Below are positions 7,981-31,248 of a stretch of DNA of 34,109 nucleotides, piece by piece (position 1 is the stretch's first letter; every line of letters starts with the position of its first letter). The position numbers and the translations under genes were made by a program. The notes under the pieces were generated by a model. The model was not told where the DNA came from and ran no database searches. It saw only the letters and a program-made list of their open reading frames with translations. The DNA lies in assembly GCA_030668645.1 (NCBI GenBank), contig DAOVFC010000001.1:1-34109 (forward strand). Direction: 5' to 3'. The stretch comes from Candidatus Bathyarchaeota archaeon (GTDB lineage: Archaea > Thermoproteota > Bathyarchaeia > Bathyarchaeales > Bathycorpusculaceae).

Positions 7981-8430
7981 CCATGTACACCACTGATCAA
8001 TCGCTTAGGTGCCTTCGGATTTTATTCTCGGTCGGAACATGTCTCATGCATCCTTTCTTCCACTTCTTCCTCCAACTCACTCACTGCCATGATTATGGAT
8101 TTTTTCATAGATTGCCTTCAACAAATGTTTCTCGCGCGCGCTTAAATTCTTTCCTTCTTTCGTTTCAAGTAAGATCTTTAAGGATTTATATAAAAGACTT
8201 GCTATTTTTCATCTAAATCGAAAATCCTTTATATAGTGGCATATATACCTAACTAATATGGTTCAACGGTTTCTTTGACCGTTAGACGACTTTAACGCTG
8301 CTTCATTCAGGTATATGAGGAAATCGAATTTGTTCTTGGAACAACATGTTTTCCTCGCATCTCGAAGCGCGACGTAACATCTCCCCTCTTTGAAGCTGCG
8401 CAAAACCACAACATAGGGTGATTATACAAG

Positions 8431-9606
8431 ATGCAGAGTATAGAAAATCATAGTTCAACCTCCTTAAGGAGCCTAGAAACTACTCAACGGGTTCTAAAAA
8501 TATTGTTCTTAGAGCCTCAGCCGTGTATACGAGCTTTAAAATATGCTATTGGATTGAGACACTGTCTGGGAAACAACGTATCCCTCTGTTTTGGGCATTC
8601 CGGACACTCACTAAGCAGGTTATACGGGTTTGGGGAAGAGTATTTCGATCAAATAATTCAGCTTGATCCGGAAAAAATCAGTGACGATATGCGTAGAATC
8701 ATTAACAAGTATAAGCCTCACATCATTCACAGTCATAACGCGCCAAACATCTTGACATTGACAGCCATTGATGTTGCTGAGGACATACCTGTAATCCATG
8801 ATGTGCATGAAGTTCTATCCGTCCATAATTCGGGTTTCTTTAGGGATGACGATGAAGAAAAATTAGCGAGGTACCGTGAGGAGGAAAGAAGAGCTTGCGA
8901 AGAGAGCGGCGGGCGGATTTATGCTACAGATGGAATTAAAAGATACGTTCAACAACGATACAATGTTGATGCTCAAAACGATATTGTATTTTACAACTAT
9001 GCCTCTAAATCAGTAATGCCTCAACATTTTAAGAAGAAAATATCCAATAAAGATAAAGAAACACATATAGTATATATCGGATGCGTTACCAGCGTTGTAA
9101 AGGGAAGTCATTATGACCTAAGAGAAATCTTCAGAAGAATAGCTGATCATAAAATTCACGTTCACATTTACCCCACAAGCGACCACATAACAAAAAGCAA
9201 TAGAACATATAAAAAATTAGCTGAACGCAACAGATTCATACATTGCCATGATACTTTAGGCTGCAAGAACTTGCTTTATGAGATAACACAGTATGATTTT
9301 GGTTGGGTAGGATTTAACGGTGCCAAAAATGGGAACCATTTAGACATCGCCCTTCCGAACAAGGTTCTCGAATATGTTAGCAGCGGTCTGCCAGTTATAG
9401 CGTTCCCGCATAAAACAATTCAGCGTTTCATAGAGAAATACGGCATAGGCTTGATCATTAAAGACGTTGACGAATTACCTGAAACTTTAAGAAATGTAAA
9501 CGTCTCTGAGTTAGAAGGACATGTTATGAGATGTAGACATAAATTGACTGTAGAAAGTAAGATTTCCAAACTTGTTGATTTCTACAACAAGATGATGGAG
9601 AATTAA
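8431..9606 (+). CDS. Glycosyltransferase, GT-B fold (group 1/GT4-like)
   Basis: C-terminal nucleotide-sugar block ALPNKVLEYVSSGLPVIAF (E-x7-E region). AT-rich relative to the flanks. Confidence 0.65.
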   Translation: MQSIENHSSTSLRSLETTQRVLKILFLEPQPCIRALKYAIGLRHCLGNNVSLCFGHSGHSLSRLYGFGEEYFDQIIQLDPEKISDDMRRIINKYKPHIIHSHNAPNILTLTAIDVAEDIPVIHDVHEVLSVHNSGFFRDDDEEKLARYREEERRACEESGGRIYATDGIKRYVQQRYNVDAQNDIVFYNYASKSVMPQHFKKKISNKDKETHIVYIGCVTSVVKGSHYDLREIFRRIADHKIHVHIYPTSDHITKSNRTYKKLAERNRFIHCHDTLGCKNLLYEITQYDFGWVGFNGAKNGNHLDIALPNKVLEYVSSGLPVIAFPHKTIQRFIEKYGIGLIIKDVDELPETLRNVNVSELEGHVMRCRHKLTVESKISKLVDFYNKMMEN

Positions 9607-9609
9607 CGG

Positions 9610-10569
9610 ATGGTGATTGAAACGGTTAATAAGGTAAACGTGCTGGATAACCCCTTTACCTACAATGAACACCTGAAGATTGAACAATCAGCAATGAAAA
9701 AGATTGAGTCGCAATACTGGACGCTTCTCTTGACGAGAAATGGAGCCGAGACTGTTCAGTTAACCGCGGAGTCGATTATGCATCAGACGATTCCTCCAGT
9801 AAGCATGTGCATCGTTGACGACGGTTCAAGCGACGATACACCCCTCATTCTTGAAGAATTAAGACATAAATATCCCGAAAGAGTCAACGTTGTCACTCTC
9901 CAGGATGAAGGCTACGATATCCGACGAGTAGTAAAAAACATTAATGTCGGGGTAGAGGCGCAGAAAAAAGAAAAAATCAAAGCAGAATACATAATGATTA
10001 GCGGGGATGATTGCGTATACCCTCCACGTTATGCTGAGCATATCCTAGTCAAGATGAACAGAGATCATAGAATTGTTGTTGCATCAGGAGATATAGAGGG
10101 GATCCCCCACCCTGATGTAACCCCGAGGGGATCGGGGCGTTTTATAAGGACCAGATTCTTTCATAAAATAGGAGGGCATTTCCCTCCCTACTATGGCTAT
10201 GAGGGATGGATATTTCAAAAAGCCTTACAGTTAGGCTACTCCACTAAAAATTACTCAGACATTCGGTATCGTCATCTCCGCGAGCTGGGGAAACAACATG
10301 GATTCATAACTTGGGGATTAGCAATGAAATGTTTAGGATATCACCCTCTTGAAGTTCTATACCGCTGTATAAAATATGTTCTAATAGATCGCCGTGTGCC
10401 CGTGGGATATATACGCGTATTATGGAACTACTTCATCCAACCCTTAACAGTAAAGGGAGACCCCTATTACCACTCCTTCGATGAGGATGTTCGAACCTAT
10501 ATACGAGAGAAACAGAAGCGCAGAACAATTCATGAAATAGCCAACCTCTTGGGATTAAACAAAAGATAA
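9610..10569 (+). CDS. Glycosyltransferase family 2
   Basis: LLLTRNGAETV...IVDDGSSDDT and ISGDD motifs of GT-A/GT2 enzymes. Lies 3 nt after the preceding glycosyltransferase gene. Confidence 0.75.
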   Translation: MVIETVNKVNVLDNPFTYNEHLKIEQSAMKKIESQYWTLLLTRNGAETVQLTAESIMHQTIPPVSMCIVDDGSSDDTPLILEELRHKYPERVNVVTLQDEGYDIRRVVKNINVGVEAQKKEKIKAEYIMISGDDCVYPPRYAEHILVKMNRDHRIVVASGDIEGIPHPDVTPRGSGRFIRTRFFHKIGGHFPPYYGYEGWIFQKALQLGYSTKNYSDIRYRHLRELGKQHGFITWGLAMKCLGYHPLEVLYRCIKYVLIDRRVPVGYIRVLWNYFIQPLTVKGDPYYHSFDEDVRTYIREKQKRRTIHEIANLLGLNKR

Positions 10570-10733
10570 ATCAAGTGAAATGAAGGTCTTAATGGCTGGT
10601 TCAGATGTATGTGTAAGAAAAATAGCACCCGATTCATGTTAATTTCCTCTTATTTAGAATGCGAACCCAGCGCGCATTGTAAAGTCGAGGAAAATTTAAA
10701 AAGATTTTCGATTTGAATGGAAGATAGCAAATC

Positions 10734-10740
10734 TTATATA
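10734..10740 (+). promoter_or_regulatory. Candidate archaeal TATA box (TTATATA)
   Basis: AT-rich TATA-like heptamer about 39 nt upstream of the ATG at 10779. Confidence 0.3.
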
Positions 10741-10778
10741 CTGACTTTTGCAAATATCGTTCCAAGTTAAGAGTGAAA

Positions 10779-10922
10779 ATGTTGAGTGAACCACAACCAC
10801 CATCTGTCTCGAAGATAGAAATTACCTTAGACGCTGATCTAATGAACAATCTGAAGACGAAGGTTGATGCCGCAAACAAAGCCCGCGCGGTTTATGAGCG
10901 TGAGTTTCCTGTTGGAAAATAA
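10779..10922 (+). CDS. 47-aa micro-ORF, possibly ribbon-helix-helix-like
   Basis: My own translation (below the ORF-track cutoff): [63 protein letters not shown] resembles an RHH strand-helix start. Overlaps the start region of the next gene. Confidence 0.3.
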
Positions 10923-11457
10923 AACTCTTGAGGAAAGAAAGACTCTAACCCTTATTAAGCTTAGAGGTTACAAGCTGATAAGACGCGAGAAACAAGAGGA
11001 TACCATCAATTTCATAGTTAAACTTCCAAGAGGGAAAAAAGCAGTTATCTGGTGCATGCCGAACCGCAAAGTGGTGGGAGTAGCCATTGTTAGAAAACTA
11101 AGAAAATTTATGGATGCAGTTGAAGTTGAAAAAGGAATTATAGTTGCTAACACACGATACACTTGGGCTTCTAAAAGAGAAGGAAGGAAATATGGTATAG
11201 AGCTGATTCCGAAACGTATTCCGTCCTTTAACATTTTCAAGCACAAGTTGGTACCGAAACATGAAATTCTTCCACCTGAGAAAGCAAGAGACCTGTTAGA
11301 AAAGTATCATATAAAGCCGTATCAACTTCCCCGAATTAAAGCATCAGATGTAGCTGTAATTGTAATAGGTGCAAAGCCAGGAGACATCATTAAAATCACC
11401 AGAAAAAGCCCTACAGCAGGAAAACACGTTGCATATAGATTCGTCGCTCCTGGATAA
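10894..11457 (+). CDS. rpoH: RNA polymerase subunit Rpo5/RpoH with an N-terminal Rpb5-jaw-like (restriction-endonuclease-fold) domain
   Basis: The C-terminal part from 11242 ([36 protein letters not shown]...[27 protein letters not shown]) is canonical RpoH. About 115 extra N-terminal aa carry [23 protein letters not shown] and [14 protein letters not shown]. The start could be 10864, 10867 or 10894. Confidence 0.8.
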
Positions 11458-11493
11458 CGCATAGATTTGAAGAATAAATGTGATTAGTGCAAC

Positions 11494-12714
11494 ATGGATA
11501 ATGAAATGTTAAAAGACTGGCGTAAACGAAGTAAGCGTGGCTATTTCGTCAGCACCTCCCCCGAATATGAATTGCTACTGAAAGATGACAGCGTTGAAAA
11601 GTGGATTACGAAGTTAAAACAGAAAGATGGATGGAGAACAACTGTTCCCAGTTTTCTGAGAACCTTGTACAAATTCACTAAATACTCAGGTAAGAGCCCG
11701 AAGGAATTGATCGATATCGCGTCTAGCACCAAAAAACTTGACCAGCGAGAAGAATTGACTTCTGCCTCTCCTGCAATCACGGAGCTTGTGCAAGGGTTTA
11801 TAAATAAACTGCTAAGTTCTGATAAACGAGAAAGGGCAAGACACGTAAGGACTTGCCTGACGTCCTTTTTCAAAGCGAACGGCGTCTCTTTAGAGCTTGA
11901 AACTATTCCTAGGGTGCCCAAAAAAGAAGAGTTTATTCCAAGCAAAGAACAGATTTACGCTATGGCAGACTATGTCGGTTCTCTTCGAAACCGAGCTATA
12001 ATCCTATGTATGTATCAGAGCGGACTAGGAATAACCGCCTTACGGAACCTCAAATATGGACATGTCAAAAAACAGCTTGAAAAAAACAGAGTTCCAGTAA
12101 GAATTCGCATCACGTCCCGTATTAATAGAAAGTCTTCGCAAGTGCCGTTTTATGCTTTTTTTGGAGCCGAGGCTTGCGATTCTTTGAGAGCCTACATTAA
12201 CGAGAGGGAAAGAAAAATTCAAAAAATGAGGGAAAAAGGAGCTAACGTAAGAGAGTTGACGGCAAACAGTCCCTTATTTGCATCTGAAGGAAAAAACGTG
12301 CCCTTTGGAGACAAAATGGCGGTCTCAAGCATCTGGCGCGTTGTTAAAGACGCGGCGGAGCGGGCTGGCTTGCAAAAAGAAAAAATTCAACCCAATTACC
12401 TGAGAAAAGCATTCGAAGCAGAGTTAAACAGGTCACTTATAGACGAAGAAGCGAAGAAATATCTGATGGGAAGCCCCATTCAAGGCATAAAATATAACGT
12501 CAACAAAGTTGAACAAAAATATTTAATACGCAACTTCAGCAGAGCAGAACTTAGCAAACTGACAGTTGTCAAAGAGTTTGTTCAATCGCTCGGAATAAAG
12601 GAACTCGAAATAAAAATACAAAAAGGCTTAGAACAGAACCCGCAAATGACAGAAATGGAAGCCGTAAGATTCATTGTGCGTAAAGAATTTGCATCAGACT
12701 CTAAAAAGAATTGA
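11494..12714 (+). CDS. Tyrosine recombinase/integrase-like protein with non-canonical active-site residues
   Basis: SAM-like N-domain (SFLRTLYKFTKYSGKSPKELIDI, TCLTSFFKANGV). Catalytic-domain blocks RNRAIILCMYQSGLGITALRNLKYGHV, NYLRKAFEAEL and YLMGSPIQGIKY. Confidence 0.8.
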   Translation: MDNEMLKDWRKRSKRGYFVSTSPEYELLLKDDSVEKWITKLKQKDGWRTTVPSFLRTLYKFTKYSGKSPKELIDIASSTKKLDQREELTSASPAITELVQGFINKLLSSDKRERARHVRTCLTSFFKANGVSLELETIPRVPKKEEFIPSKEQIYAMADYVGSLRNRAIILCMYQSGLGITALRNLKYGHVKKQLEKNRVPVRIRITSRINRKSSQVPFYAFFGAEACDSLRAYINERERKIQKMREKGANVRELTANSPLFASEGKNVPFGDKMAVSSIWRVVKDAAERAGLQKEKIQPNYLRKAFEAELNRSLIDEEAKKYLMGSPIQGIKYNVNKVEQKYLIRNFSRAELSKLTVVKEFVQSLGIKELEIKIQKGLEQNPQMTEMEAVRFIVRKEFASDSKKN

Positions 12715-12844
12715 AAATGGATAATTACGCGTGAAAGTGTTGCAAAAACAGATTTCGGAATTTTTTCTACTTTAGAAGGGAATCCAGTTGATTGATCCAC
12801 TGGTTAAACTCTTTTCATACATACTTCGTAAGTGTAGAGTTGAC

Positions 12845-13243
12845 CTAACCTATCTTTTCTTCGCCAATTAAAACAGCATTTATAACTCCATTTTGTCCAG
12901 GACGAGAGGTGACACGCGCCAAACCCAGAGAAGTCTCTATCACGGCGCCTTTAGTCATCACGCCCCTTCGGTTGTAGTCAACATTCGCAGGGTTCTTAAC
13001 AACACGCACAATCTCAACCTTCTCTGTTTTCCCACCCTTCGGGTCCGTTACACACGCGTATTTATCCCTTAAAACCTTAACCTTTACATTCCCTCCTCTT
13101 CCTCGAGCAATCTTCCGTTTCGGTTCACCTAAGGTGGTTTCGACTGGAAAAGAGCCTCGTTCGAACCTTCTCTTTACTCTGTAAGCTCGTTTCCTGCCTC
13201 CTGAAGACTTTTTCTTGTGTAAGTCGCCGTGCCAAACACCCAC
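12845..13243 (-). CDS. rps8e: 30S ribosomal protein S8e
   Basis: MGVWHGDLHKKKSSGGRKR...NPANVDYNRRGVMTKGAVIET is typical S8e. Confidence 0.9.
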   Translation of the reverse strand: MGVWHGDLHKKKSSGGRKRAYRVKRRFERGSFPVETTLGEPKRKIARGRGGNVKVKVLRDKYACVTDPKGGKTEKVEIVRVVKNPANVDYNRRGVMTKGAVIETSLGLARVTSRPGQNGVINAVLIGEEKIG

Positions 13244-18910: not shown

Positions 18911-19114
18911 ATGGGAATCGAAGCTCTAAAAGAGTAGATCACAGAACTGAAAGCTCGAATCGAAGAGTTAGAGGGCGACAGAAAAAGGAAATCACCTTTG
19001 CAACGTGGCGAACTAGAACAGATATTATCCGCTCGTGTTCACGTTTTAGATAAGATTTTTCTGGCATTCTTGAAAAATTTTTCAGACCATCTATGCGTAT
19101 TCGCCGTCGTTTGA
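18911..19114 (+). pseudogene. Coiled-coil ORF interrupted by an in-frame TAG at 18935-18937
   Basis: My own translation: MGIEALKE*ITELKARIEELEGDRKRKSPLQRGELEQILSARVHVLDKIFLAFLKNFSDHLCVFAVV*. The sequence stays protein-like across the stop. Confidence 0.3.
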
Positions 19115-19416
19115 GCTGAGAGGTTAAGATTTCTGCAAAACTTAGCATGCCTTCAAGGTCACATTTGCCCTGAAGTGTTTTTAGTCACTGAGATGTACCA
19201 TGAGAAATTGAGGGAACCTAGTACTGTATACAGTGCGTGTTTCACTCTGTTTTCTGTTGAACATCTAAGCGGCCAAAGGGCATGTTGATGCTCGGCAACT
19301 AGTCCTATGACGGGTATGATTGATTTTTGCCCACACATTAAGAAACTTATTCGCAGAACAGGTTCAAAATTAAATATATGGTCAATTTGTCAGTTATTTC
19401 TATTCTAGAGGAAACC

Positions 19417-19423
19417 TTTAAAA
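19417..19423 (+). promoter_or_regulatory. Candidate archaeal TATA box (TTTAAAA)
   Basis: About 40 nt upstream of the GTG at 19463, at the head of the four-gene small-protein operon. Confidence 0.3.
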
Positions 19424-19462
19424 GGAAAACTAAGTATATGGGTAAAGTGAACCGATGAGCGT

Positions 19463-19582
19463 GTGCCTTTGCCAAGAAAATATCGAAGGATAAAAGTTAA
19501 AGGGCATTACCGGGCTGTCGCACGGGATTCAAGTGGAAGATTCAAGAAAGTAAAGAAATGGAGTAGTAAGAAAGAGAGGTGA
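19463..19582 (+). CDS. 39-aa highly basic micro-ORF
   Basis: My own translation: VPLPRKYRRIKVKGHYRAVARDSSGRFKKVKKWSSKKER. Its TGA overlaps the GTG of the next ORF (GTGA), which suggests translational coupling. Confidence 0.3.
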   Translation: MPLPRKYRRIKVKGHYRAVARDSSGRFKKVKKWSSKKER

Positions 19583-19878
19583 ATGCTAAGATGGCGTATG
19601 ATCATGATGAAATAGCAAATAGGCTTGCTAAGAAATCTGGATCGAGACATAGAAGGAAAGGGGTTGATATCGTTTCTAAGGGTAGGGCTATAGAAGTTGC
19701 AGTCACTCAAGGTGATATGTATGCATCCGTTGGGCAACTCAAACGATCAAGGGCGCGCAAGAAGTATATGGCGGTTCCGGCTCCTATGATTCCGGATGCG
19801 AGAAGGTTGCTCAAAGGTTCGGGAATCGGAATAATGAATACAAGAGGACGGATTCGAAAAAGGTCAAGAAAGAAATAA
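19579..19878 (+). CDS. Small basic protein with a PD-(D/E)XK-like core (GVDIV...IEVAVTQ) and an Arg/Lys tail
   Basis: 99-aa ORF (alternative ATG at 19591). KGVDIVSKGRAIEVAVTQGD resembles the D...E-x-K strands of minimal nucleases such as Hjc/YraN, but with Ala in the Lys position. C-terminal RGRIRKRSRKK. Confidence 0.5.
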   Translation: MNAKMAYDHDEIANRLAKKSGSRHRRKGVDIVSKGRAIEVAVTQGDMYASVGQLKRSRARKKYMAVPAPMIPDARRLLKGSGIGIMNTRGRIRKRSRKK

Positions 19879-19917
19879 TTAAGATTATAAGAAAATGAAT
19901 GAAGATGAAATTAAGAA

Positions 19918-20148
19918 ATGGCATTAATTGCCTTAATTTTCCTTGTAGGATTTGGTATCTTTCCCATCGTAGTTCTTGAATGGTTCATTAAGAATGTTAC
20001 TACACCAATAGGAACGATTGAACAATTCGCAAAAGTTCTTAGCTCGTCGAACCCATGGATGTGGGGTTTTGGATTACTAGGCATCGCTATAACGGGTTTA
20101 ATCACGGCAACCATATGGGCGTGGATCAAAGAGAAAATAGGATTGTGA
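19918..20148 (+). CDS. Small membrane protein with two predicted TM helices
   Basis: Hydrophobic stretches LIALIFLVGFGIFPIVVLEWFI and WMWGFGLLGIAITGLITATIWAWI. The overlapping minus-strand ORF looks non-coding. Confidence 0.6.
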   Translation: MALIALIFLVGFGIFPIVVLEWFIKNVTTPIGTIEQFAKVLSSSNPWMWGFGLLGIAITGLITATIWAWIKEKIGL

Positions 20149-20157
20149 CGCCCAACA

Positions 20158-20796
20158 TTGAGATTACGTCCGCGCGATTGCATTGTTGATAAAATACAAC
20201 AATGTAAGGATTGTGAAAAATACTCTCAAGTCCTGTGCATGAAGCCTAAGCCTTACGTTAAGTTTCAGGTTCTTGAAAGGTGGAGGCCAACGAAAGTGAA
20301 GGTGCTTTTCATTGCAGAGTCACCGCCAAAGGATGGAAATGAGGGGTATTTCTACAATGAGAAAACAGAAGGTAGACTTAAAGACAAAATCTTCAATTTG
20401 CTGGATATACCTGAAGAAAAAGCCGAGAGAGGATTGCAAAGGTTTAAACAAAGAAATTTCCTCCTCATCGACACCGTTAAATGTAGGTTAGACAAGTCGC
20501 AGGGAAAAAGTCCCCCTCCCTATGTCATTAAGAGATGCGCTGAAAACTTTTTGCAAAAAGAAATAGACGGTTTGAAGCCAGATAAAATCTGCGTACTGGG
20601 TAGGACTGCCCTAAAGGGTTTGAAGGCTATTACCACTTTTAGAAAGGGGCTAAACGGAGTTAGAAAAATAACAGAGCATTGTGGAAAAGAGCTGACGATA
20701 TCAGGTTATGAAATCATTCTATGCGTTTTTCCGAGTAATCGAAACAGGAAATATCAATCATGCATAGAATCCGTTTTTGGTCTCTGGGTTCCATAA
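20158..20796 (+). CDS. Uracil-DNA glycosylase superfamily protein, Fe-S (family 4/5-like) type with divergent catalytic motifs
   Basis: Cys pattern C-x2-C (CKDC, 20203-20214) plus VKCR-x17-C, as in family 4 UDGs. Motif A reads FIAESPP (20308-20328) and motif B reads VFPSNRN. TTG start 10 nt after the membrane ORF. Confidence 0.7.
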   Translation: MRLRPRDCIVDKIQQCKDCEKYSQVLCMKPKPYVKFQVLERWRPTKVKVLFIAESPPKDGNEGYFYNEKTEGRLKDKIFNLLDIPEEKAERGLQRFKQRNFLLIDTVKCRLDKSQGKSPPPYVIKRCAENFLQKEIDGLKPDKICVLGRTALKGLKAITTFRKGLNGVRKITEHCGKELTISGYEIILCVFPSNRNRKYQSCIESVFGLWVP

Positions 20797-20819
20797 GGTC
20801 ACAAGAGTTCATGCCGTCG

Positions 20820-20850
20820 CGCCGGGGGTGGGATTTGAACACCTGGGCGT
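20820..20850 (-). other. tRNA 3-prime-end-like remnant (T-arm plus acceptor strand), not an intact tRNA
   Basis: The minus strand reads AGGTG-TTCAAAT-CCCAC-CCCCGGC-G. The T-loop and acceptor strand are recognisable, but the 5-prime T-stem strand is 2 nt short. No matching GCCGGGG 5-prime acceptor, D-arm or anticodon arm was found. Confidence 0.35.
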
Positions 20851-21232
20851 GGAGATATCACTTGCGAACCTCTCTTTTTAGTACGCACGCGCAGAAGTTT
20901 TTGGACGCCGTTGCCGCGTTGGAAAAGCTCGGCTGGATTACGTTTATGCTTGCTGTCCCAGAATATAATAAGCGGATGCTGAAAGGAAAAGTCAATAAAG
21001 TAAAAGTAATTCTCGCAAAATTTTCTTTTCCATACAGCCGGAGAATCGGTGGGGAGCACACTCACTTCACCAGAGGGACTATAAAGAATGGCTTAAGGAA
21101 GCATCCATAAACCACTTAAGTCTAGCGCTTAGACGTCTTGCACAGCTAAACCAAACAAAAGTCTACCCGTTCTGGCGGAACCCTGCTTTTCAAGATAGTG
21201 CATGCATTTTAACTCTCTCAGAATACCAAAGA

Positions 21233-21239
21233 TTTTATA
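21233..21239 (+). promoter_or_regulatory. Candidate archaeal TATA box (TTTTATA)
   Basis: Ends 22 nt upstream of the ATG at 21262. The spacing fits a leaderless or short-leader transcript. Confidence 0.35.
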
Positions 21240-21261
21240 CAATCGCAGACAATGTGTTTTC

Positions 21262-24200
21262 ATGGCACAAACCCGTCTCCCCGTCATCCAGGTAGCTCCT
21301 GAAAAAAGAGAAGAACTTGACGAAAAACTAAGGGAGATTTATCAAAACCTTAAGAACAAGTTTAAGGTTTTTGGGACTTTTCAGGACGTACTGGTCAAGT
21401 CAAAAGATTATCATTCAAAAGATTTGAAAGATGAACAATCACCAGAGGAATTCGCCAAAAGAGCAGTAATTGAACCACTCATTGAGTTTTTAGGATATGA
21501 ATTCGTCCCTGAGACTATCCTACCTTCACCTGGGGGCAGGAAAAAGCCTGATTACACAATTAGACCCAGAAGTAAGGATAAGCCAATCTTCTACGTAGAA
21601 GCAGAACCAATCAATATTGATCTGAATAGCAAAGACCATGGAGTCTCACAGGTAAAAGATTGGCTGATATCTAGAGCTTCTAAGACTGATTATGGTATTG
21701 CCACCGATGGACTTCAATGGATTCTACTAAAATTTGACACTGCATCAGCGCAAAGTAAAGAGTTCCTAAAAGTGGATCTGAGACCTGTCTTCTTAAAATT
21801 GCTTAACCCAGCTGCCTTTGTCAGTAAAAAAGAAGTAGAAAAAATAGAGGAAGATTTCCTCACTTACCACCGTGAATACGTTTCGTTGTTCCTAGAAGGC
21901 TACTTGGAGAGAATTGAGAAAAAGAAGGAGGAAATCTCAAAGAGGTTCTATAATGATTACGTAAGATATGTTTTTGGGTACGATCAGAAGGGTGACACCA
22001 TTCAAGGCACATGTCTGTTGAAGAGAGTAGTGACACCTTCGGGTGCAAACTACAATGATGCAAACTCATTTTCAGTTGTGTTTATGAATAGGATTATCTT
22101 CATCAAATTCCTTGAAGAAAAAGGAATAGTGCCAAAGAACCTACTGAAGAAAATGCTTGAAAATTACAAACATTCAAGGACTCCAGCTTCATTTTATGAA
22201 ACTTATCTGAAACCTCTCTTCTATGAGGTTTTTAACAAGAGTAAAGATGGTAGAACCTCTACAGTAAAAAACAACTCTCTCTACAGTCAGATCCCCTATT
22301 TGAATGGTGGACTGTTTAGGGAAGTAATCGAATCCGAAAAGAATTTTAACATAGAAAATGAGGGTGTTGAACTTGTCATAGAGAACCTTTTGGATCGCTA
22401 TGAATTCGGTTTAGAGTCGGACATAAACCCAGACATATTGGGCTATATTTTTGAGAAAACAATTAACTTCATTTCTGGAACTGGCACAAACCAGCAGAAA
22501 ATGCAGGGAGCATACTACACCCCTGATGATACTGTGGGATTTATCATAGAGGAAACGTTGACACCCGTTGTTTTCAGAAAAATGATTGATGGTTTGAAGA
22601 AGGCGGGATGGAGCGATACCGATCTGAAGGGGTATAATTCAATAGAAGACATACTGGACCCGGTGCACGTGCCCAAGAATCCAATGCACATCAAGAAAAT
22701 GATTGAATCATTAGGACTGCTTAGAGTTCTTGATCCAGCTTGTGGTTCAGGTCACTTCTTAACTGCTATGCTCTCATTGATTCTGAGAGTAAAGGAAAGC
22801 TTGTTGAGAGCAATTCCTGAAGACGTTGATAGATACAGGCTGAAGAGAGAGATAATATCTCAAAATCTATTCGGAGTTGATATTGATGAAAATGCAATCG
22901 AAATAGCCAGATTGAGACTATGGCTATCGATAATAGAAGAAGTTGAAGATCTAGAACATATTGAGACGCTACCAAATATAGATTTCAACATTATTGCAGG
23001 AAATAGCCTCATAGGTTTATTGGATGAAAATCTCTTGACGCATCCTCTGATAAACCTGTTGGAAGACCCACACGTACAAGGGACACTAGAAAATTTAAGA
23101 GAATTTTATGGAAACAAGATAGATGAAGTCAGAGATCTTCTCGGCAGGATGAAGTTGAAGGACACTATCAAAGCTTACGAGACCCTTTTAGGCGTTTACT
23201 CTGTAGAATCGGGAGAACGAGCTGTCAAAGTTAGGGATTTGCTAGAAAAGATCAGAGACAAGTTATACGAAGTCATTAGCAACTCGTATCTCGATTTTCT
23301 CCACGAAAACGGCAATCTGAAAAAAAGTGAATTCGATGAAATAAGCAAGAACCTATCGAGTAGAATGCCTTTTCACTGGAAAATCGATTTTGAAAATGTC
23401 TTCGCAGAAGGCGGATTTGATGTAGTTGTGGGGAATCCACCATATGTAGAAGATAGGAACTACAACAAAACTGATCTCAGAATCATCAAATCTCAGAAGG
23501 AGATCAAGAAGGGAAGAAAAAAAGTCAGAGAACCTCTTTTCTACGTTTCAAATAATTGCAGAAACACTCATGCCTATTTCATTGAAAGATCAATTAAACT
23601 ATTAAAGCGAAACGGCAGGTTTGGGTTCATTGTCCCAATCGCTCTTGTGTCCACTGATAGAATGGGCTCTATAAGAGAGTTTATTCATGACAACTCAAGC
23701 GAAGTGAAATACTTCAGTTTCGATGATCGCCCCGGCAAGATATTTAGTGGTTTGGAGCATTGTAGAGCCACAATCGTAATCACAGAAAAGGATACAGAGG
23801 CAAAGAAAGTGATTACGAGCAAATATCACAGGTGGTTCTCTAGGGACAGAGCTAAACTCTTCAAGGATCTTAAAACTAGTGATTGGACAGTTGAAAATCC
23901 AGAAGAAACAGTACCGAAAATAGGGACAAAGATCGAAAAGAGAATACTCACGAAACTTCAACAAAAATCAAAGGGAAAGGCCCTTAGAGACTTCGAGAAA
24001 GCTGATGGAGCAAAAATTTGGTATTATAATGCGCCACAGTATTGGATACACGCTCATACAGAAGATTACCTACCGGAAGTTGAACACTATAACAGTTGCA
24101 GGGAGAACGACAAGACCAGAGAAAAAATACCATATGACTTGAGAGAGAGAAAGATATCATCACATTATAAACCTTTGACTTTCGAGTCAGAAAATTCATT

Positions 24201-24567
24201 TGTCGTCAATAGTTTAATGAACAGTTCTTTATTCTACTGGTGGTTTGTCGTGTGGTCTGATGGTCGAGATCTCTTAGCCCAACATATCAAGTGTTTTCCC
24301 CTCGACCTAGACAATTTCTCTGAAAATCTGAAAAAGAGACTAAAGCCACTGATTAACGAACTGATGAGAAGCTACGATGAAAATTCTAACCTCAAAATTA
24401 ATCTGAGATCTGGTGGATATGTGATAAAAATAAAGGAGATAATCCCATCAAAATCGATAAGTATCATTGATCAAATTGATGATGTATTCGCAGATTACTT
24501 TGGATTTATCGAAGAGGAAAGAAGGTTTATCAAGGAATTTGATATAGGATTCAGAATTAAGGATTAG
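21262..24567 (+). CDS. Type IIG restriction-modification fusion (N-terminal HsdR-N/PD-(D/E)XK-like domain, gamma-class N6-adenine methyltransferase, C-terminal TaqI-like specificity domain)
   Basis: KPDYTIRP...IFYVEAEP and GIATDGLQWILLKF in the N-domain. GAYYTPDD, VLDPACGSGHFL, LFGVDIDENAIEIARLRL and VVGNPPYV (NPPY at 23434-23445). C-terminal LMNSSLFYWWFVVWSDGRDL. Met21 of the listed ORF is preferred as the start. Confidence 0.85.
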   Translation: MAQTRLPVIQVAPEKREELDEKLREIYQNLKNKFKVFGTFQDVLVKSKDYHSKDLKDEQSPEEFAKRAVIEPLIEFLGYEFVPETILPSPGGRKKPDYTIRPRSKDKPIFYVEAEPINIDLNSKDHGVSQVKDWLISRASKTDYGIATDGLQWILLKFDTASAQSKEFLKVDLRPVFLKLLNPAAFVSKKEVEKIEEDFLTYHREYVSLFLEGYLERIEKKKEEISKRFYNDYVRYVFGYDQKGDTIQGTCLLKRVVTPSGANYNDANSFSVVFMNRIIFIKFLEEKGIVPKNLLKKMLENYKHSRTPASFYETYLKPLFYEVFNKSKDGRTSTVKNNSLYSQIPYLNGGLFREVIESEKNFNIENEGVELVIENLLDRYEFGLESDINPDILGYIFEKTINFISGTGTNQQKMQGAYYTPDDTVGFIIEETLTPVVFRKMIDGLKKAGWSDTDLKGYNSIEDILDPVHVPKNPMHIKKMIESLGLLRVLDPACGSGHFLTAMLSLILRVKESLLRAIPEDVDRYRLKREIISQNLFGVDIDENAIEIARLRLWLSIIEEVEDLEHIETLPNIDFNIIAGNSLIGLLDENLLTHPLINLLEDPHVQGTLENLREFYGNKIDEVRDLLGRMKLKDTIKAYETLLGVYSVESGERAVKVRDLLEKIRDKLYEVISNSYLDFLHENGNLKKSEFDEISKNLSSRMPFHWKIDFENVFAEGGFDVVVGNPPYVEDRNYNKTDLRIIKSQKEIKKGRKKVREPLFYVSNNCRNTHAYFIERSIKLLKRNGRFGFIVPIALVSTDRMGSIREFIHDNSSEVKYFSFDDRPGKIFSGLEHCRATIVITEKDTEAKKVITSKYHRWFSRDRAKLFKDLKTSDWTVENPEETVPKIGTKIEKRILTKLQQKSKGKALRDFEKADGAKIWYYNAPQYWIHAHTEDYLPEVEHYNSCRENDKTREKIPYDLRERKISSHYKPLTFESENSFVVNSLMNSSLFYWWFVVWSDGRDLLAQHIKCFPLDLDNFSENLKKRLKPLINELMRSYDENSNLKINLRSGGYVIKIKEIIPSKSISIIDQIDDVFADYFGFIEEERRFIKEFDIGFRIKD

Positions 24568-24612
24568 GTAAGCAGGTCTGTCCCTAAAGTCATAAACGCT
24601 TATGTCTACTCT

Positions 24613-24626
24613 CATTGTTAACAATG
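24613..24626. repeat. Perfect 14-nt palindrome CATTGTTAACAATG between convergent genes
   Basis: Read directly from the sequence, 46 nt after the type IIG stop. Could be a hairpin or a dimeric binding site. Confidence 0.5.
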
Positions 24627-24672
24627 TGTAAAACTCATTTAACTCCTCAGTGAACCAACAAAGATTTTTCCT

Positions 24673-25390
24673 CTATAGTTCACGCTTTCTTGTTTTGTAT
24701 TGCATGGTGTGCATGTCGATGAGGGCTCCGGTTGCGATTGCGTTTACTCCTGTTGAAAAAGCTATAAGTACAAGGAGGGTGTCATGCAGGTTCTCTGTCC
24801 AACCACTCGGCCAACTAATTATGCAGTAAACGGTTGAAGCAATTATGACGATTCCATGCATGCATAGTTGACGATGTATTGATAGAATTGGAAATAGTCC
24901 CTTGAATCCAACGCTAAGGGGTGCCACGGTGCGCGTTCCCAAATTAGCCCCTTATCATCGCCATACAACCAGCTGTAGACATCTGCAAGGCCGTCATAAG
25001 AGCTGTAGGTTTCAGGAGGCCATTGCGTAATTGTGTGCCAAAAACGAACTCCGTAATCATGAACGTCGATGGTTCCCTTCGGAGGACGAGGTGTACCGCC
25101 AACCGCTATTAAATAAGACATGAAGTTGATGTATGGGGTGAGTTCGTTCCAGTCTAATTCAACAGCGATATATGGAAGTTCACCAACGCCAAATTCATCG
25201 TGCACTAATGCGCCACTTGGGTCGTTGATGTACACTTTTTGGGATCCACCTGCAGTGCTGTAGCCGACGATTACAACCGTATGTTCGATACCCCTCATGA
25301 CCAGAAGTATAGGCCTCTCTCTGTCTATCCAATATGTTACAGGCGAATACGATGATGGAGGCAGAATCTTCAGAAAGCGAAAATAGAATA
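24673..25390 (-). pseudogene. Decayed papain-like (C39-like) cysteine peptidase gene, lacking its N-terminus and frameshifted near the C-terminal TM region
   Basis: ERPILLVMRGIEHTVVIVGY...KVYINDPSG is the His-containing block of C39-like peptidases. No room or start exists for the Cys-containing N-terminal half before the psmA promoter. The two-TM tail (24673-24942) is in another frame. Confidence 0.45.
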
Positions 25391-25485: not shown

Positions 25486-26202
25486 ATGTCTATGTTTGCA
25501 GCACCAGGTGCATACGACCGTGTGATAACCGTTTTTTCACCGGACGGTCGATTGTTTCAAGTTGAGTACGCAATGGAGCTGGTTAACCGTGGAGCAACGA
25601 TTTTGGGAATAAAGTGCTCCGAGGGAGTGGTTTTAGGAGCAGAGGAAACTGTTGAAACATCCCTTGAGGATTCGGAAGGCTCATGGAAAATTTTCAAGAT
25701 CGATGACCATGTGGCCGCGGGTATAGTGGGTTTAAGCTCAGACGCACGCACACTCATAGACCAGGCACGCATATACGCTCAAAGCAACAAGCTAACCTAC
25801 GATGAGCCGATAGACCTTGAAGTGATAACGAAGAGGATATGTGACATAAAACAGCTTTACACGCAGCACGCAGGTGTGAGACCGTTCGGAGTTTCACTAA
25901 TCTTCGGCGGAGTGGACAAGACTGGAAACCGACTGTTCGGCACGCACGCAAGCGGAGCGTACAGGGGCTACAAGGCTACGGCTATGGGTGCGGGAAGAGA
26001 AACCGTGCTGAACATACTGAAGGAGGAATACCGTGAGGACATGAGTCTTGAAGACGCAGTAAGGCTTGCCGTAAAATGCTTGACGAAAGCCCTAGAAGCC
26101 AGACAGTTAGCTCCGAGAATAAAGATTGCAGTTATTCCTTCAGCAACCAAGAAGATGAAAATGCTCAGCGACGAAAAAATCGAAGGTTACATTAAGGGTT
26201 AG
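25486..26202 (+). CDS. psmA: Proteasome subunit alpha
   Basis: YDRVITVFSPDGRLFQVEYAME signature N-terminus. Confidence 0.95.
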   Translation: MSMFAAPGAYDRVITVFSPDGRLFQVEYAMELVNRGATILGIKCSEGVVLGAEETVETSLEDSEGSWKIFKIDDHVAAGIVGLSSDARTLIDQARIYAQSNKLTYDEPIDLEVITKRICDIKQLYTQHAGVRPFGVSLIFGGVDKTGNRLFGTHASGAYRGYKATAMGAGRETVLNILKEEYREDMSLEDAVRLAVKCLTKALEARQLAPRIKIAVIPSATKKMKMLSDEKIEGYIKG

Positions 26203-26216
26203 GCTAGTGAAAACGG

Positions 26217-26906: not shown

Positions 26907-26931
26907 ATAATGGTAATTAGGTTGTGAAAAC

Positions 26932-27672
26932 ATGCCAACATTTTTCGAAAGAAGAGAGATTGTAACCCCGGGAGATCTGCTCGCAGAAGGCGAATACGTA
27001 GCGGGTGAAAACACGTACAAGGAAGACAAGAAAATCTACGCCTCAAGAATTGGACTCATAGAGTATGGAGACAGAAACATAAGCGTTGTAGCTTTAAGAG
27101 CGTTCTACATCCCGAGAATAGGAGACACCGTCATAGGAACAATCACGGAGATGGGATTCAGCGGATGGACCGTTGACATAAACGCGCCATACCTAGCCTT
27201 GCTGAGGGCATCGGATGTTCTGAACAGACCGTTCAGACCGCAGAGGGACGACTTATCTGCAGTTCTGAATGTGGGTGACCTGGTAATTGCGAAGATAGTC
27301 GCCTATGACCGAGCGCATGATCCACAGCTAACAGTGGGTGAGCCGGGACTCGGAAGAATAACACGTGGACAAATAGTGAAAGTTACCCCGACAAAGATTC
27401 CCCGCATAATCGGAAGAAAAGGTTCGATGATAAGTATGATAAAACAGGAAACAGACTGCCACATAACCCTCGGACACAATGGAGTCATATTGATAACCGG
27501 CAAAAAACTTGAAGACGAACAGTTAGCAGTGATGGTCATCCATAAAATTGATGAAGAATCTCACATAAGCGGTTTAACAGACCGAATAACCCAGATGATT
27601 AAAGAGGAAAAAACTAAAACAAAGAAAAGGAGGAAAGTAAAGAATGAGTCAAAAATCCGAGAAGCTAATTGA
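26932..27672 (+). CDS. rrp4: Exosome complex RNA-binding subunit Rrp4 (S1 plus KH)
   Basis: S1 block [23 protein letters not shown] and KH block [23 protein letters not shown]. Confidence 0.9.
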
Positions 27673-31200: not shown

Positions 31201-31248
31201 TCATTGGTTATCTAAATTATCAATCGCAATTGAACACTTAAGAAAATG

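What the first reader, a model, noticed from the sequence alone, without database searches (positions are those of the whole stretch)
10894..11457. Full-length, eukaryote-style two-domain Rpb5 homologue instead of the short archaeal RpoH
The last ~72 aa are a textbook archaeal Rpo5/RpoH: [10 protein letters not shown]...[10 protein letters not shown]...[27 protein letters not shown].

The same ORF carries about 115 additional N-terminal residues. These line up block by block with my recollection of the N-terminal jaw domain of yeast Rpb5:
- Yeast DRGY matches LRGYKL here.
- Yeast LWVEFCDEPSVGVKT matches [17 protein letters not shown].
- Yeast GIFVYQNNITPSA matches [14 protein letters not shown].
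- Yeast IETF, just before HELVPKH, matches IELI before HKLVPKH.

That domain has a restriction-endonuclease (Mrr-like) fold. As in Rpb5, I see no (D/E)-x-K catalytic triad here: WCM sits where Mrr has Q-x-K.

Standard descriptions treat the Rpb5 N-domain as eukaryote-specific and archaeal subunit H as the C-domain only. An archaeal gene encoding both domains would therefore bear on the origin of the eukaryotic RNAP jaw.
Basis: partly seen in the sequence, partly recalled or inferred. Interest (0 to 1): 0.8.

Follow-up and report, generated by a model that had tools for sequence, protein, structure and literature searches.

The report
Archaeal RNA polymerase subunit with eukaryote-type jaw
This Bathyarchaeia gene encodes RNA polymerase subunit Rpo5/H with an extra N-terminal, catalytically dead nuclease-fold domain that matches the "jaw" domain of eukaryotic Rpb5, a domain textbooks call eukaryote-specific, and the same two-domain form is widespread in Bathyarchaeia and Asgard archaea.

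Summary
The ORF at 10894-11457 (+) is real and is under purifying selection in both halves. Residues 112-184 are a canonical Rpo5/RpoH domain (Pfam 1e-30; NCBIfam equivalog above cutoff).

Residues ~9-108 form an Mrr-type restriction-endonuclease fold whose catalytic residues are lost (N39; W53-C54-M55 in place of Q-x-K). Three results tie this domain to the eukaryotic Rpb5 N domain:
- A profile of the N domain alone finds eukaryotic RPB5 as the seven best PDB matches (1e-5).
- The same kind of profile retrieves true Rpb5_N proteins from 1.8 billion representatives.
- hhalign against eukaryotic Rpb5 N domains gives 98.5% probability.

The AlphaFold model superposes on full-length RPB5 (TM 0.70-0.79), whereas archaeal subunit H covers only half. 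The domain lacks the eukaryotic helical insertion, misses PF03871, and is at least as close to active Mrr nucleases, so it looks like an intermediate.

Two-domain forms occur in many Bathyarchaeia and in Heimdall-, Hod-, Thor- and Jordarchaeia. They are never next to rpoB, and a large Bathyarchaeia rpoB clade has no rpoH upstream. That this is the only Rpo5 in its genome remains inferred.

Nine literature searches (seven of them full-text) found no description. One paper states that no archaeon has this domain.

The parts
10894..11457 (+). rpo5L: gene for a 187-aa two-domain Rpo5/Rpb5-type RNA polymerase subunit. An alternative in-frame TTG start lies at 10912. The stop codon is at 11455-11457.
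   Evidence: ORF. Pfam and NCBIfam hits. More than 120 homologous clusters of ~180 aa. dN/dS 0.25 (N half) and 0.12 (C half) against L001/L002. AF2 pLDDT 88.9, pTM 0.79.
10918..11217 (+). N-terminal domain (residues ~9-108): a catalytically dead Mrr-type restriction-endonuclease fold (helix-3 strands-helix-strand-helix-strand), homologous to the Rpb5 N/jaw domain. Net charge +16.
   Evidence: Mrr_cat, residues 19-105, 1.3e-6, above the gathering cutoff. N-only profile against PDB: RPB5 on top. hhalign against eukaryotic Rpb5 N 2.2e-15 and against Mrr 2.5e-18. Secondary structure. Charge.
11008..11010 (+). Asn39 codon at the position of the catalytic Asp of Mrr nucleases (GiD motif).
   Evidence: hhalign A3 against A6 aligns EDTINFIV with DGGIDIVV. 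Alignment A1.
11050..11058 (+). Trp53-Cys54-Met55 codons at the position of the Mrr Q-x-K catalytic motif. The active site is lost.
   Evidence: hhalign aligns AVIWCM with AIIQCK. No D/E-x-K is conserved among the long forms; the invariant N-domain residues are R24, G62, V63, T90, E103, I105 and P110.
11227..11445 (+). C-terminal Rpo5/RpoH/Rpb5_C domain (residues 112-184), the part that docks on the largest RNAP subunit in solved archaeal and eukaryotic polymerases.
   Evidence: PF01191 1.1e-30. NF007129 105 bits, above the cutoff of 83. 4qiw_H 4.9e-24. Foldseek against archaeal subunit H chains: TMt 0.85-0.90, rmsd 1.6-2.0.
10779..10922 (+). Small upstream ORF (47 aa, ribbon-helix-helix-like) that overlaps the rpo5L start by 29 nt. 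A TATA-like TTATATA lies at 10734-10740. It is possibly co-transcribed. This is context, not shown to be part of the function.
   Evidence: ORF. A homologous ORF sits at the same place in L001 and L002. Sequence read directly.

Best explanation
The gene encodes the Rpo5 (subunit H) of this Bathyarchaeia archaeon's RNA polymerase in a full-length, Rpb5-like form.

The C-terminal domain anchors the protein to the largest subunit, as in every solved archaeal and eukaryotic polymerase. This is inferred from family membership.

The N-terminal domain is an Mrr-type restriction-endonuclease fold that has lost its catalytic Asp and Q/E-x-K residues, so it cannot cut DNA. It packs against the C domain as in Rpb5. 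Being strongly basic here (+16), it most likely lines the downstream-DNA channel as a 'lower jaw / guard rail'. It would fill the space that Rpo13 fills in Sulfolobales and the Rpb5 N domain fills in eukaryotes, and it may offer a docking surface for factors such as TFB. These functional points are inferred.

Evolutionarily it is the short, insertion-free version of the eukaryotic Rpb5 jaw domain. It links that domain to active Mrr nucleases.

The gene has left the rpoH-rpoB-rpoA operon. The short rpoH is probably absent from genomes that carry the long form (indirect evidence only).
For: **Domain identities**
-.

**Homology of the N domain to the Rpb5 N domain**
- N-only profile against PDB sequences: the top seven hits are all eukaryotic RPB5, at 1.1e-5 to 3.2e-4.
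- N-only profile against 1.84e9 representatives retrieves proteins that Pfam confirms as RNA_pol_Rpb5_N: P0214 at 3.5e-10, P0254 at 2.4e-6, P0275 at 2.2e-5.
- hhalign archaeal N against eukaryotic N: 98.5% probability, 2.2e-15. Eukaryotic N against Mrr gives only 4.6e-7, so the archaeal domain bridges the two.

**Structure**
- AF2 pLDDT 88.9.
- The 34 best Foldseek PDB hits are all full-length RPB5 chains: E = 1e-15 to 1e-10, TMq 0.59-0.79 (0.70-0.79 where about 190-210 columns align). The best is 7vba_E (TMq 0.78, rmsd 2.9).
- Archaeal subunit H covers only the C half (TMq 0.38).

**Dead active site**
-.

**Purifying selection**
-.

**Stable housekeeping gene**
- Each Bathyarchaeia subclade and the Heimdall group keeps its own conserved synteny around the gene.

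**Probably the only Rpo5**
- 0 of 31 long-form loci lie next to rpoB, while 44 of the 53 short-rpoH loci show rpoB directly downstream.
- No long-form assembly gave a second hit in the GTDB scan.
- All 51 metagenomic rpoB loci whose RpoB is at least 66% identical to a Bathyarchaeia-named RpoB lack any Rpb5_C within 3.5 kb (two have under 500 bp of upstream sequence). Of the 29 other loci, 23 have rpoH directly upstream.
- Accession numbers in PMC13257274 put Thor- and Helarchaeota Rpo5 far from Rpo1.

**Distribution**
- Bathyarchaeia, Jordarchaeales, Heimdallarchaeota, Hodarchaeales and Thorarchaeota.
Against: - The window protein gives no hit to Pfam RNA_pol_Rpb5_N. The best Asgard form scores 15.6 bits against a cutoff of 27.
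- By hhalign the N domain is slightly closer to active Mrr nucleases (2.5e-18) than to the eukaryotic Rpb5 N domain (2.2e-15).
- Both comparison sets were picked from hits of the archaeal profile, which inflates both values.
- The N-domain model alone matches EndoMS/NucS (4.5e-6) better than Rpb5 (5.7e-4) in Foldseek.
- C-domain identities show no special Asgard-eukaryote affinity.
- In the window the gene lies in a GC-poor stretch next to a tyrosine recombinase.
- No same-genome proof exists that a short rpoH is absent.
- No biochemical evidence exists that the protein is in the polymerase.
Confidence: 0.7

Rival explanations
1. Convergent fusion. Archaea (perhaps more than once) and the eukaryotic stem independently fused an inactivated Mrr-like domain to the N terminus of Rpo5. 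The archaeal N domain would then be an analogue, not the ancestor or orthologue, of the Rpb5 jaw.
For: - The archaeal N domain scores a little better against Mrr nucleases than against the eukaryotic Rpb5 N domain, and it hits Mrr_cat rather than PF03871.
- Bathyarchaeia and Heimdall N domains are only ~20-25% identical.
- Standalone dead-REase paralogues, and proteins with two or three such domains before Rpb5_C, show that this domain is mobile in these lineages.
- C domains show no Asgard-eukaryote affinity.
Against: - The domain order and linker are the same, and the predicted inter-domain packing matches (TM 0.70-0.79 over both domains).
- The eukaryotic N domain is far closer to the archaeal N domain (2.2e-15) than to Mrr (4.6e-7).
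- Both have lost the catalytic motif.
- The form is present in Heimdall/Hodarchaeales, named in the literature as the closest relatives of eukaryotes.
Confidence: 0.17
2. Accessory paralogue. The long protein exists alongside a canonical short RpoH. It is either not a stoichiometric RNAP subunit, or it is an alternative subunit, for example a regulatory or mobile-element-associated variant.
For: - It is never in the rpo operon.
- In the window and in L001, L002 and L081 it neighbours a tyrosine recombinase and lies in a low-GC stretch.
- Some Bathyarchaeia do have a short rpoH at rpoB (L021, L030, L046, L051, L070).
Against: - The C domain is as conserved as canonical RpoH: 61% identity to short forms, and the equivalog model is passed.
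- Synteny is stable and lineage-specific, with no integrase in most clades.
- No att-like repeats were found.
- A whole Bathyarchaeia rpoB clade (51 of 51 loci) has no rpoH upstream.
- No second hit appeared in any long-form assembly.
Confidence: 0.1
3. The N domain is an active nuclease (a restriction- or defence-type activity tethered to RNAP).
For: Mrr_cat hit above the gathering threshold. The Asp of the GiD motif is retained in the Heimdall and some Bathyarchaeia forms.
Against: - The (Q/E)-x-K motif is absent in every long form examined (WCM, ARF, RVI, KVA).
- The window protein also has Asn in place of the catalytic Asp.
- No acidic or Lys residue is invariant at the active site.
Confidence: 0.02
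4. Annotation artefact. The true start is near 11230 and the upstream 330 nt are not translated.
For: NCBI records for several homologues annotate only the last 72-91 aa.
Against: - The frame is open in all homologues.
- dN/dS is 0.25 over the N half.
- The fold is predicted with high confidence.
- Homology to Rpb5_N and Mrr is significant.
- A 'short' Heimdall entry, P0169, was shown to be a missed non-ATG start.
Confidence: 0.01

Closest known systems
Eukaryotic Rpb5 / RPABC1 (shared subunit of Pol I, II and III; PF03871 + PF01191), and its homologues in ASFV and other large DNA viruses
   Same: - Two-domain architecture: an N-terminal dead REase-fold domain, a short linker, then the Rpb5_C domain.
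- Conserved RGY, hydrophobic strand-P-x-x-VGV, GIIV and xTxxA blocks.
- The predicted relative orientation of the domains matches (TM 0.70-0.79).
- No catalytic residues.
   Different: - About 20-30 residues shorter. It lacks the helical insertion between the first helix and the sheet (a 15-column gap in hhalign).
- It does not reach the PF03871 threshold.
- The N domain is strongly basic in the window protein.
- It is encoded in an archaeon with a single RNAP.
Archaeal Rpo5 / RpoH (subunit H), ~75-90 aa, e.g. 4qiw_H, 8cro_H, 7ok0_H
   Same: The C-terminal 75 residues are ~59-61% identical and have the same fold (TMt 0.85-0.90). It passes the NCBIfam equivalog model for subunit H.
   Different: It carries ~110 extra N-terminal residues that form a folded domain. 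The gene is not upstream of rpoB-rpoA.
Mrr_cat (PF04471) restriction endonucleases and inactive derivatives (NA-iREase1, PF22722); the EndoMS/NucS C-terminal nuclease domain as a structural neighbour
   Same: Same alpha-beta-beta-beta-alpha-beta core. HMM hit above the Mrr_cat cutoff. hhalign 99% probability. Foldseek 5gkj_B at 4.5e-6.
   Different: The catalytic D...(Q/E)xK is replaced (N39, W53-C54-M55). There is no winged-helix or other DNA-recognition module. It is fused to an RNAP subunit.
Rpo13 of Sulfolobales/Desulfurococcales (a functional analogue)
   Same: By inference it occupies the space between Rpo5 and Rpo1 beside the downstream DNA. PMC3479171 describes that space as filled by Rpo13 in Sulfolobus and by the Rpb5 N domain in eukaryotes.
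   Different: The fold is unrelated (Rpo13 is a small helix-turn-helix protein). Rpo13 is a separate polypeptide. This position was not tested here.

Membership tests
Rpo5/RpoH/Rpb5 C-terminal domain family (PF01191; NCBIfam NF007129) | Sequence match to the family models above the curated cutoffs | tested here: met
   PF01191: 105.6 bits against a cutoff of 23.5, full model length, residues 112-184. NF007129 equivalog: 105.3 bits against a cutoff of 83.
Rpo5/RpoH/Rpb5 C-terminal domain family (PF01191; NCBIfam NF007129) | Fold of subunit H | tested here: met
   Predicted model against 9bct_H, 8cro_H and 7ok0_H: TMt 0.87-0.90, rmsd 1.6-2.0 Å, 59% identity. This is a prediction, not an experimental structure.
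Rpo5/RpoH/Rpb5 C-terminal domain family (PF01191; NCBIfam NF007129) | Gene immediately upstream of rpoB-rpoA (typical of archaea but not strictly defining) | tested here: not met
   There is no rpoB in the window. 0 of 31 long-form loci lie next to rpoB, against 44 of 53 short-form loci with rpoB directly downstream.
Rpo5/RpoH/Rpb5 C-terminal domain family (PF01191; NCBIfam NF007129) | Stoichiometric incorporation into RNA polymerase | not testable with these tools
   Needs RNAP purification with mass spectrometry, or cryo-EM.
Full-length Rpb5 / RPABC1 (PF03871 + PF01191) | REase-like N-terminal domain directly preceding Rpb5_C in one polypeptide | tested here: met
   Domain map. AF2 secondary structure. 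Full-length Foldseek alignments to RPB5 chains over about 190-210 columns.
Full-length Rpb5 / RPABC1 (PF03871 + PF01191) | Match to Pfam RNA_pol_Rpb5_N above the gathering score (27 bits) | tested here: not met
   The window protein gives no hit at E <= 1. The best archaeal long form scores 15.6-18.8 bits. PF03871 covers only the first ~90 residues of Rpb5, including the eukaryote-specific insertion.
Full-length Rpb5 / RPABC1 (PF03871 + PF01191) | Significant sequence homology of the N domain alone to eukaryotic Rpb5 N domains | tested here: met
   hmmsearch against PDB: RPB5 at 1.1e-5 to 3.2e-4, top seven hits. Against 1.84e9 representatives, PF03871-confirmed proteins at 3.5e-10 to 1e-4. hhalign: 98.5% probability, 2.2e-15 (the comparison set was chosen from hits, so the value is inflated).
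Full-length Rpb5 / RPABC1 (PF03871 + PF01191) | Helical insertion between helix 1 and the beta-sheet of the N domain (eukaryotic Rpb5 N is ~140 aa) | tested here: not met
   The archaeal N domain is ~105 aa. hhalign needs a 15-column gap at that position.
Full-length Rpb5 / RPABC1 (PF03871 + PF01191) | N domain lines the downstream-DNA channel (lower jaw) and binds TFIIB-type factors | not testable with these tools
   Inferred from the predicted domain orientation, the basic charge, and the description of Rpb5 N as a 'guard rail' in PMC3479171.
Mrr_cat restriction endonucleases (PF04471) | Match to the family model above the gathering score | tested here: met
   28.9 bits against a cutoff of 21, residues 19-105. 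hhalign against Mrr nucleases 2.5e-18.
Mrr_cat restriction endonucleases (PF04471) | Catalytic D ... (Q/E)-x-K residues | tested here: not met
   N39 replaces the Asp. W53-C54-M55 replace Q-C-K. No long form retains the x-K motif. It should therefore not be filed as a nuclease.

The most novel reading that the evidence does not exclude
The Rpb5 jaw domain of all eukaryotic nuclear RNA polymerases is not a eukaryotic invention. On this reading an Mrr-type nuclease domain was inactivated and fused to Rpo5 in archaea before eukaryogenesis. It survives today in Heimdall/Hodarchaeales, other Asgard lineages and Bathyarchaeia, and it was inherited by the first eukaryotes, which only added a helical insertion. 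In the archaea that carry it, the long protein is the sole Rpo5, and it replaces Rpo13-like factors in holding downstream DNA.
Probability: 0.55. Interest if true: 0.8.

Novelty: new variant of a known kind. Interest (0 to 1): 0.72.

Why it matters
Rpb5 is one of the five subunits shared by Pol I, II and III. Its N-terminal domain forms the lower jaw that guides downstream DNA and is a target of TFIIB, TFIIF, URI/Bud27 and the hepatitis B virus protein HBx.

[quoted passage not shown] They use it as an example of eukaryote-specific elaboration of the transcription machinery.

A conserved archaeal two-domain Rpo5, present in the Asgard lineages nearest to eukaryotes and in Bathyarchaeia, would have four consequences:
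- It moves the origin of the jaw domain back into Archaea.
- It supplies the missing sequence link between Rpb5 N and active Mrr nucleases.
- It adds an entry to the list of 'eukaryotic signature' features of Asgard archaea.
- It gives a tractable system (recombinant archaeal RNAP with or without the N domain) to ask what the jaw domain does in a simple polymerase.

It also exposes a systematic annotation error: the ORF is truncated to 72-91 aa in several NCBI records.

Tried and rejected
1. **Linking long-form Rpo5 and RpoB to the same MAG through NCBI protein accession numbers**. Most cluster members carry no accession, so this led nowhere.
2. **Matching 'longest contig' lengths between long-form clusters and RpoB clusters or loci** to find shared contigs. 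No matches.
3. **The look-up of encoding contigs for the window's own protein.** It is not on record.
4. **Searching for att-like direct repeats around the GC-poor stretch with the recombinase**. Nothing convincing, so an integrated element is not supported.
5. **C-domain pairwise identities as a quick phylogenetic signal for an Asgard-eukaryote link**. No signal; the domain is too short and the Heimdall forms are divergent.
6. **Foldseek with the N domain alone**. It confirms a generic PD-(D/E)XK fold but does not single out Rpb5 (EndoMS ranks first). Structure of the isolated domain therefore cannot decide orthology.
7. **A Heimdall 'short' protein, P0169,** looked like a natural N-less form. 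It proved to be a gene call that missed a non-ATG start.
8. **The sigma-70 promoter and terminator scan** is uninformative for an archaeon.
9. **Nine literature searches, seven of them full-text** (plus reading 17-19, 37, 38, 80, 81). I found no description of an archaeal two-domain Rpo5. The library lacks most subscription journals, so prior description cannot be excluded.
Full report
**1. The observation**

The window is a chromosomal fragment of an archaeon whose closest relatives are MAGs labelled Candidatus Bathyarchaeia. It carries:
- mevalonate-pathway genes, GluRS and ribosomal protein S8e;
- SMC/ScpAB and proteasome alpha;
- the exosome superoperon.

The nearest relatives of the gene of interest are those Bathyarchaeia MAGs.

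It encodes 187 aa from ATG 10894. An in-frame TTG at 10912 would give 181 aa, the commonest length among homologues. Both starts include the whole N-terminal region.

Pfam finds three families:
- RNA_pol_Rpb5_C over residues 112-184, E = 1.1e-30, full model length;
- Mrr_cat over residues 19-105, E = 1.3e-6, 28.9 bits against a gathering score of 21;
- NA-iREase1, below threshold.

RNA_pol_Rpb5_N (PF03871) is not hit. NCBIfam's equivalog model for subunit H is passed at 105 bits against a cutoff of 83. There is only one such gene in the window.

**2. The N-terminal region is coding and constrained**

- More than 120 database clusters (at 90% identity) share the same ~180-aa two-domain layout at 58-92% identity.
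- Conserved residues (EERK, LRGYKL) lie upstream of every internal Met.
- Against the two closest genomic relatives, dN/dS is about 0.25 for the N half and about 0.12 for the C half.
- AlphaFold2, run on a 44-sequence alignment, gives pLDDT 88.9 and pTM 0.79. Only residues 1-7 are disordered. The N domain reads helix, three strands, helix, strand, helix, strand.

A start near 11230 is therefore excluded.

**3. What the N domain is**

Alignment of 20-44 long forms shows no conserved D/E-x-K. hhalign against bona fide Mrr nucleases aligns EDTINFIV with DGGIDIVV and AVIWCM with AIIQCK. Asn39 therefore replaces the catalytic Asp, and W53-C54-M55 replace Q-x-K. Other long forms have ARF, RVI or KVA at that place. 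The domain is a dead Mrr-type REase fold.

Four independent results tie this domain to the Rpb5 N domain.

(a) A profile built from N domains only (no C domain) was searched against all PDB sequences.
- The seven best hits are eukaryotic RPB5: Drosophila 1.1e-5, human 2.3e-5, Arabidopsis 3.2e-4.
- The alignment covers RPB5 residues ~56-117.
- No nuclease in the PDB scores better than 0.2.

(b) An N-only profile was searched with HMMER against 1.84 billion representatives and gave 282 hits.
- The hits include proteins that Pfam confirms as RNA_pol_Rpb5_N + Rpb5_C: P0214 at 3.5e-10, P0254 (human-like) at 2.4e-6, P0275 at 2.2e-5.
- Classical Mrr nucleases with intact D...QCK appear at 1e-6 to 1e-4.

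(c) Profile-profile comparison:
- archaeal N against eukaryotic Rpb5 N: 98.5% probability, E = 2.2e-15, with one 15-column gap where eukaryotes have a helical insertion;
- archaeal N against Mrr: 99.0%, 2.5e-18;
- eukaryotic N against Mrr: only 92.6%, 4.6e-7.

The archaeal domain thus sits between the other two. Both comparison sets were drawn from hits of the archaeal profile, so the absolute values are inflated.

(d) Foldseek of the full-length model against the PDB:
- The 34 best hits are all full-length RPB5 chains of Pol I, II, III, IV and V and of ASFV.
- E = 1e-15 to 1e-10; TMq 0.59-0.79, and 0.70-0.79 where about 190-210 columns align. The best is 7vba_E at 0.78, rmsd 2.9 Å.
- Archaeal subunit H chains cover only the C half (TMq ~0.38).
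- The predicted packing of the two domains is therefore Rpb5-like.

The N-domain model alone matches EndoMS/NucS (4.5e-6) ahead of Rpb5 chains (5.7e-4 to 5e-2, rmsd 2.2-2.5 Å over ~80 columns). The isolated fold is generic. The specific link rests on sequence profiles and architecture.

The failure to hit PF03871 has a technical explanation. That model covers only the first ~90 residues of Rpb5, including the eukaryote-specific insertion. The second half of genuine Rpb5 N domains itself gives weak Mrr_cat hits.

**4. Distribution and context**

A scan of one genome per GTDB species found long forms in about 20 Bathyarchaeia species, a Jordarchaeales MAG, and several MAGs labelled Heimdall- or Thorarchaeota.

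A second protein search, seeded with a Heimdall form, returned 50 clusters. NCBI names them 'DNA-directed RNA polymerase subunit H' or 'RpoH/Rpb5 C-terminal domain-containing protein' from Heimdallarchaeota/Heimdallarchaeaceae. Further representatives are named Hodarchaeales and Thorarchaeota.

Heimdall forms add a 50-90-aa Lys/Pro/Thr-rich tail (net charge +12 to +31). One Jordarchaeales form and one unclassified Asgard-type form (L036) have acidic tails. The window's N domain itself is strongly basic, at +16.

Within each subclade the gene sits in its own conserved neighbourhood:
- window, L001 and L002: RHH-like ORF, rpo5L, tyrosine recombinase, S8e, ScpB;
- Heimdall: BpsA_C, OapC, rpo5L.

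This argues for a stable chromosomal gene rather than mobile cargo. No att-like repeats flank the GC-poor stretch in the window.

**5. Is it the only Rpo5?**

There is no direct same-genome proof. The indirect evidence is consistent.
- None of the 31 long-form loci is adjacent to rpoB. Of the 53 short-rpoH loci in the same GTDB scan, 44 show rpoB (usually with rpoA1) directly downstream.
- No long-form assembly produced a second hit. That scan was pattern-based, so the absence is weak evidence.
- A metagenome scan for rpoB returned 80 loci. Of these, 23 have a short rpoH immediately upstream and 57 have no Rpb5_C domain within 3.5 kb on either side. Fifty-three of the 57 have at least 900 bp of upstream sequence. 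None has an N domain nearby.
- The split follows phylogeny. All 51 loci whose RpoB is at least 66% identical to that of L124 lack rpoH. The database relatives of L124's RpoB are named Bathyarchaeia or Bathyarchaeota down to about 55% identity.
- Accession numbers listed in PMC13257274 place the Rpo5 of a Thor- and a Helarchaeota genome hundreds of genes away from Rpo1. Rpo8 lies two genes from Rpo1 in the Helarchaeota genome.

A large Bathyarchaeia clade, and apparently some Asgard lineages, therefore have rpo operons without rpoH, as expected if the unlinked long gene supplies the subunit. Other Bathyarchaeia (L021, L030, L046, L051, L070) keep the classical short rpoH-rpoB arrangement.

**6. 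Mechanism**

*Shown.* This is a two-domain protein. The C domain is a canonical Rpo5. The N domain is a dead Mrr-like fold homologous to Rpb5 N. Both halves are under purifying selection.

*Inferred from the family.* The C domain docks on the largest subunit, as in all solved archaeal and eukaryotic RNAPs. The N domain, held in the Rpb5-like orientation, lies along the downstream DNA channel. PMC3479171 describes the Rpb5 N domain as a 'guard rail' for incoming DNA, and describes the equivalent space in Sulfolobus as filled by Rpo13. The basic N domain in Bathyarchaeia, or the basic tail in Heimdall, would favour DNA contact.

*Weak hint.* TFB, TBP, Alba and SSB-like OB-fold genes, and standalone dead-REase paralogues, occur near rpo5L in some Bathyarchaeia loci. 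This is not evidence of factor interactions.

**7. Comparison with what is known**

The protein is a member of the Rpo5/RpoH/Rpb5_C family, and all sequence and fold criteria are met. It has the architecture of eukaryotic Rpb5, but it lacks the eukaryotic insertion and fails PF03871. It is best described as a minimal, archaeal variant of full-length Rpb5. It should not be filed as an Mrr nuclease, because the catalytic residues are missing.

The literature retrieved states the opposite of what is seen here:
[quoted passage not shown] - the PD-(D/E)XK survey lists Rpb5 N as Eukaryota only (PMC3424549).

A 2026 paper on archaeal RNAP small subunits models Rpo5 of Thor- and Helarchaeota but discusses only Rpo6 and Rpo8.

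Nine literature searches, seven of them full-text, found no description of an archaeal long Rpo5.

The sequences themselves are numerous in databases. JGI even labels some 'RNA polymerase I, II and III subunit RPABC1'. Several NCBI records truncate the ORF to its last 72-91 codons, which may explain why the form went unnoticed.

**8. Verdict**

The main uncertainties are:
- whether the archaeal and eukaryotic N domains share a fusion ancestor or arose by convergent fusion;
- whether the long protein is the sole Rpo5 in its genome;
- whether someone has already reported this outside the searchable literature.

I rate it a new variant of a known kind, with high evolutionary interest.

Noticed in passing
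window 10779-10922 (+); TATA-like TTATATA at 10734-10740: A 47-aa ribbon-helix-helix-like ORF (…[18 protein letters not shown]…) lies directly upstream of rpo5L and overlaps its start by 29 nt. A homologous ORF sits at the same place in L001 and L002. The window copy diverges at its C terminus, possibly through a frameshift.
   Followed up: partly
window 11494-12714 (+): A 406-aa tyrosine recombinase (Phage_integrase, 1.8e-11) lies immediately downstream of rpo5L. The pairing is conserved in L001 and L002 (75% identity) and L081 (57%), but is absent from other long-form clades. No att-like repeats were found.
   Followed up: partly
window 8000-13000 and 19000-25000: Two GC-poor stretches (0.38-0.43, against 0.44-0.49 in most of the rest). 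The first holds GT4, GT2, rpo5L and the recombinase. The second holds a 1121-aa MmeI/Eco57I-like type IIL restriction-modification enzyme (21202-24567). The glycosyltransferases are not syntenic in L001 or L002.
   Followed up: partly
window 25486-31668: Archaeal exosome superoperon (proteasome alpha, SBDS, Rrp4, Rrp41, Rrp42, L37ae, Pcc1, prefoldin beta). A UPF0175 + PIN toxin-antitoxin-like pair is inserted at 29962-30850.
   Followed up: no
L029, L032, L035, L041, L064, L082 (Heimdall-type); L018 (Jordarchaeales); L036: Asgard long Rpo5 proteins carry a third part. In Heimdall-type forms it is a 50-90-aa Lys/Pro/Thr-rich repeat tail resembling histone H1/HC2 (net +12 to +31). In L018 and L036 it is an acidic tail.
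   Followed up: partly
P0191 (481 aa), P0219 (436), P0220 (378), P0244 (293), P0237 (561): Some proteins have two or three REase-like domains before Rpb5_C. One has a Cpn60/TCP1 apical-like segment inserted before the end of Rpb5_C. P0191 and P0237 carry NCBI accessions; the organism part of their names was cut off in the output, so their lineage is not known.
   Followed up: partly
L081:11418-11984; L003:838-1194; P0209, P0217, P0222, P0212: Standalone paralogues of the dead-REase domain (~190-250 aa, with no Rpb5_C). Some lie close to rpo5L, next to OB_Ssb-like, TFB, TBP-fragment and Alba genes. P0212 has a weak TFIIB-type zinc-ribbon hit in front of the domain.
   Followed up: partly
database records OGD57471.1, MGD0805021.1, MFQ6074875.1, MCW4053904.1, MGD8564904.1; P0169: NCBI annotation often calls only the last 72-91 codons of the long ORF as 'subunit H'. 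One Heimdall entry misses a non-ATG start. JGI names some Bathyarchaeia proteins 'RNA polymerase I, II and III subunit RPABC1'.
   Followed up: yes
Pfam PF03871 against P0254, P0275, P0315, P0272: The RNA_pol_Rpb5_N model covers only the first ~90 residues of the eukaryotic N domain. The second half of genuine Rpb5 N domains gives weak Mrr_cat hits. This explains why the archaeal long forms are filed under Mrr_cat.
   Followed up: yes
L085-L164 (metagenomic rpoB loci): All 51 rpoB loci of one Bathyarchaeia RpoB clade lack rpoH upstream. Instead they often have a divergently oriented ~118-aa gene and a NadA-like gene upstream. Four further rpoH-less loci (L140, L153, L159, L161) have ribosomal protein L37e upstream and probably belong to another lineage.
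   Followed up: partly
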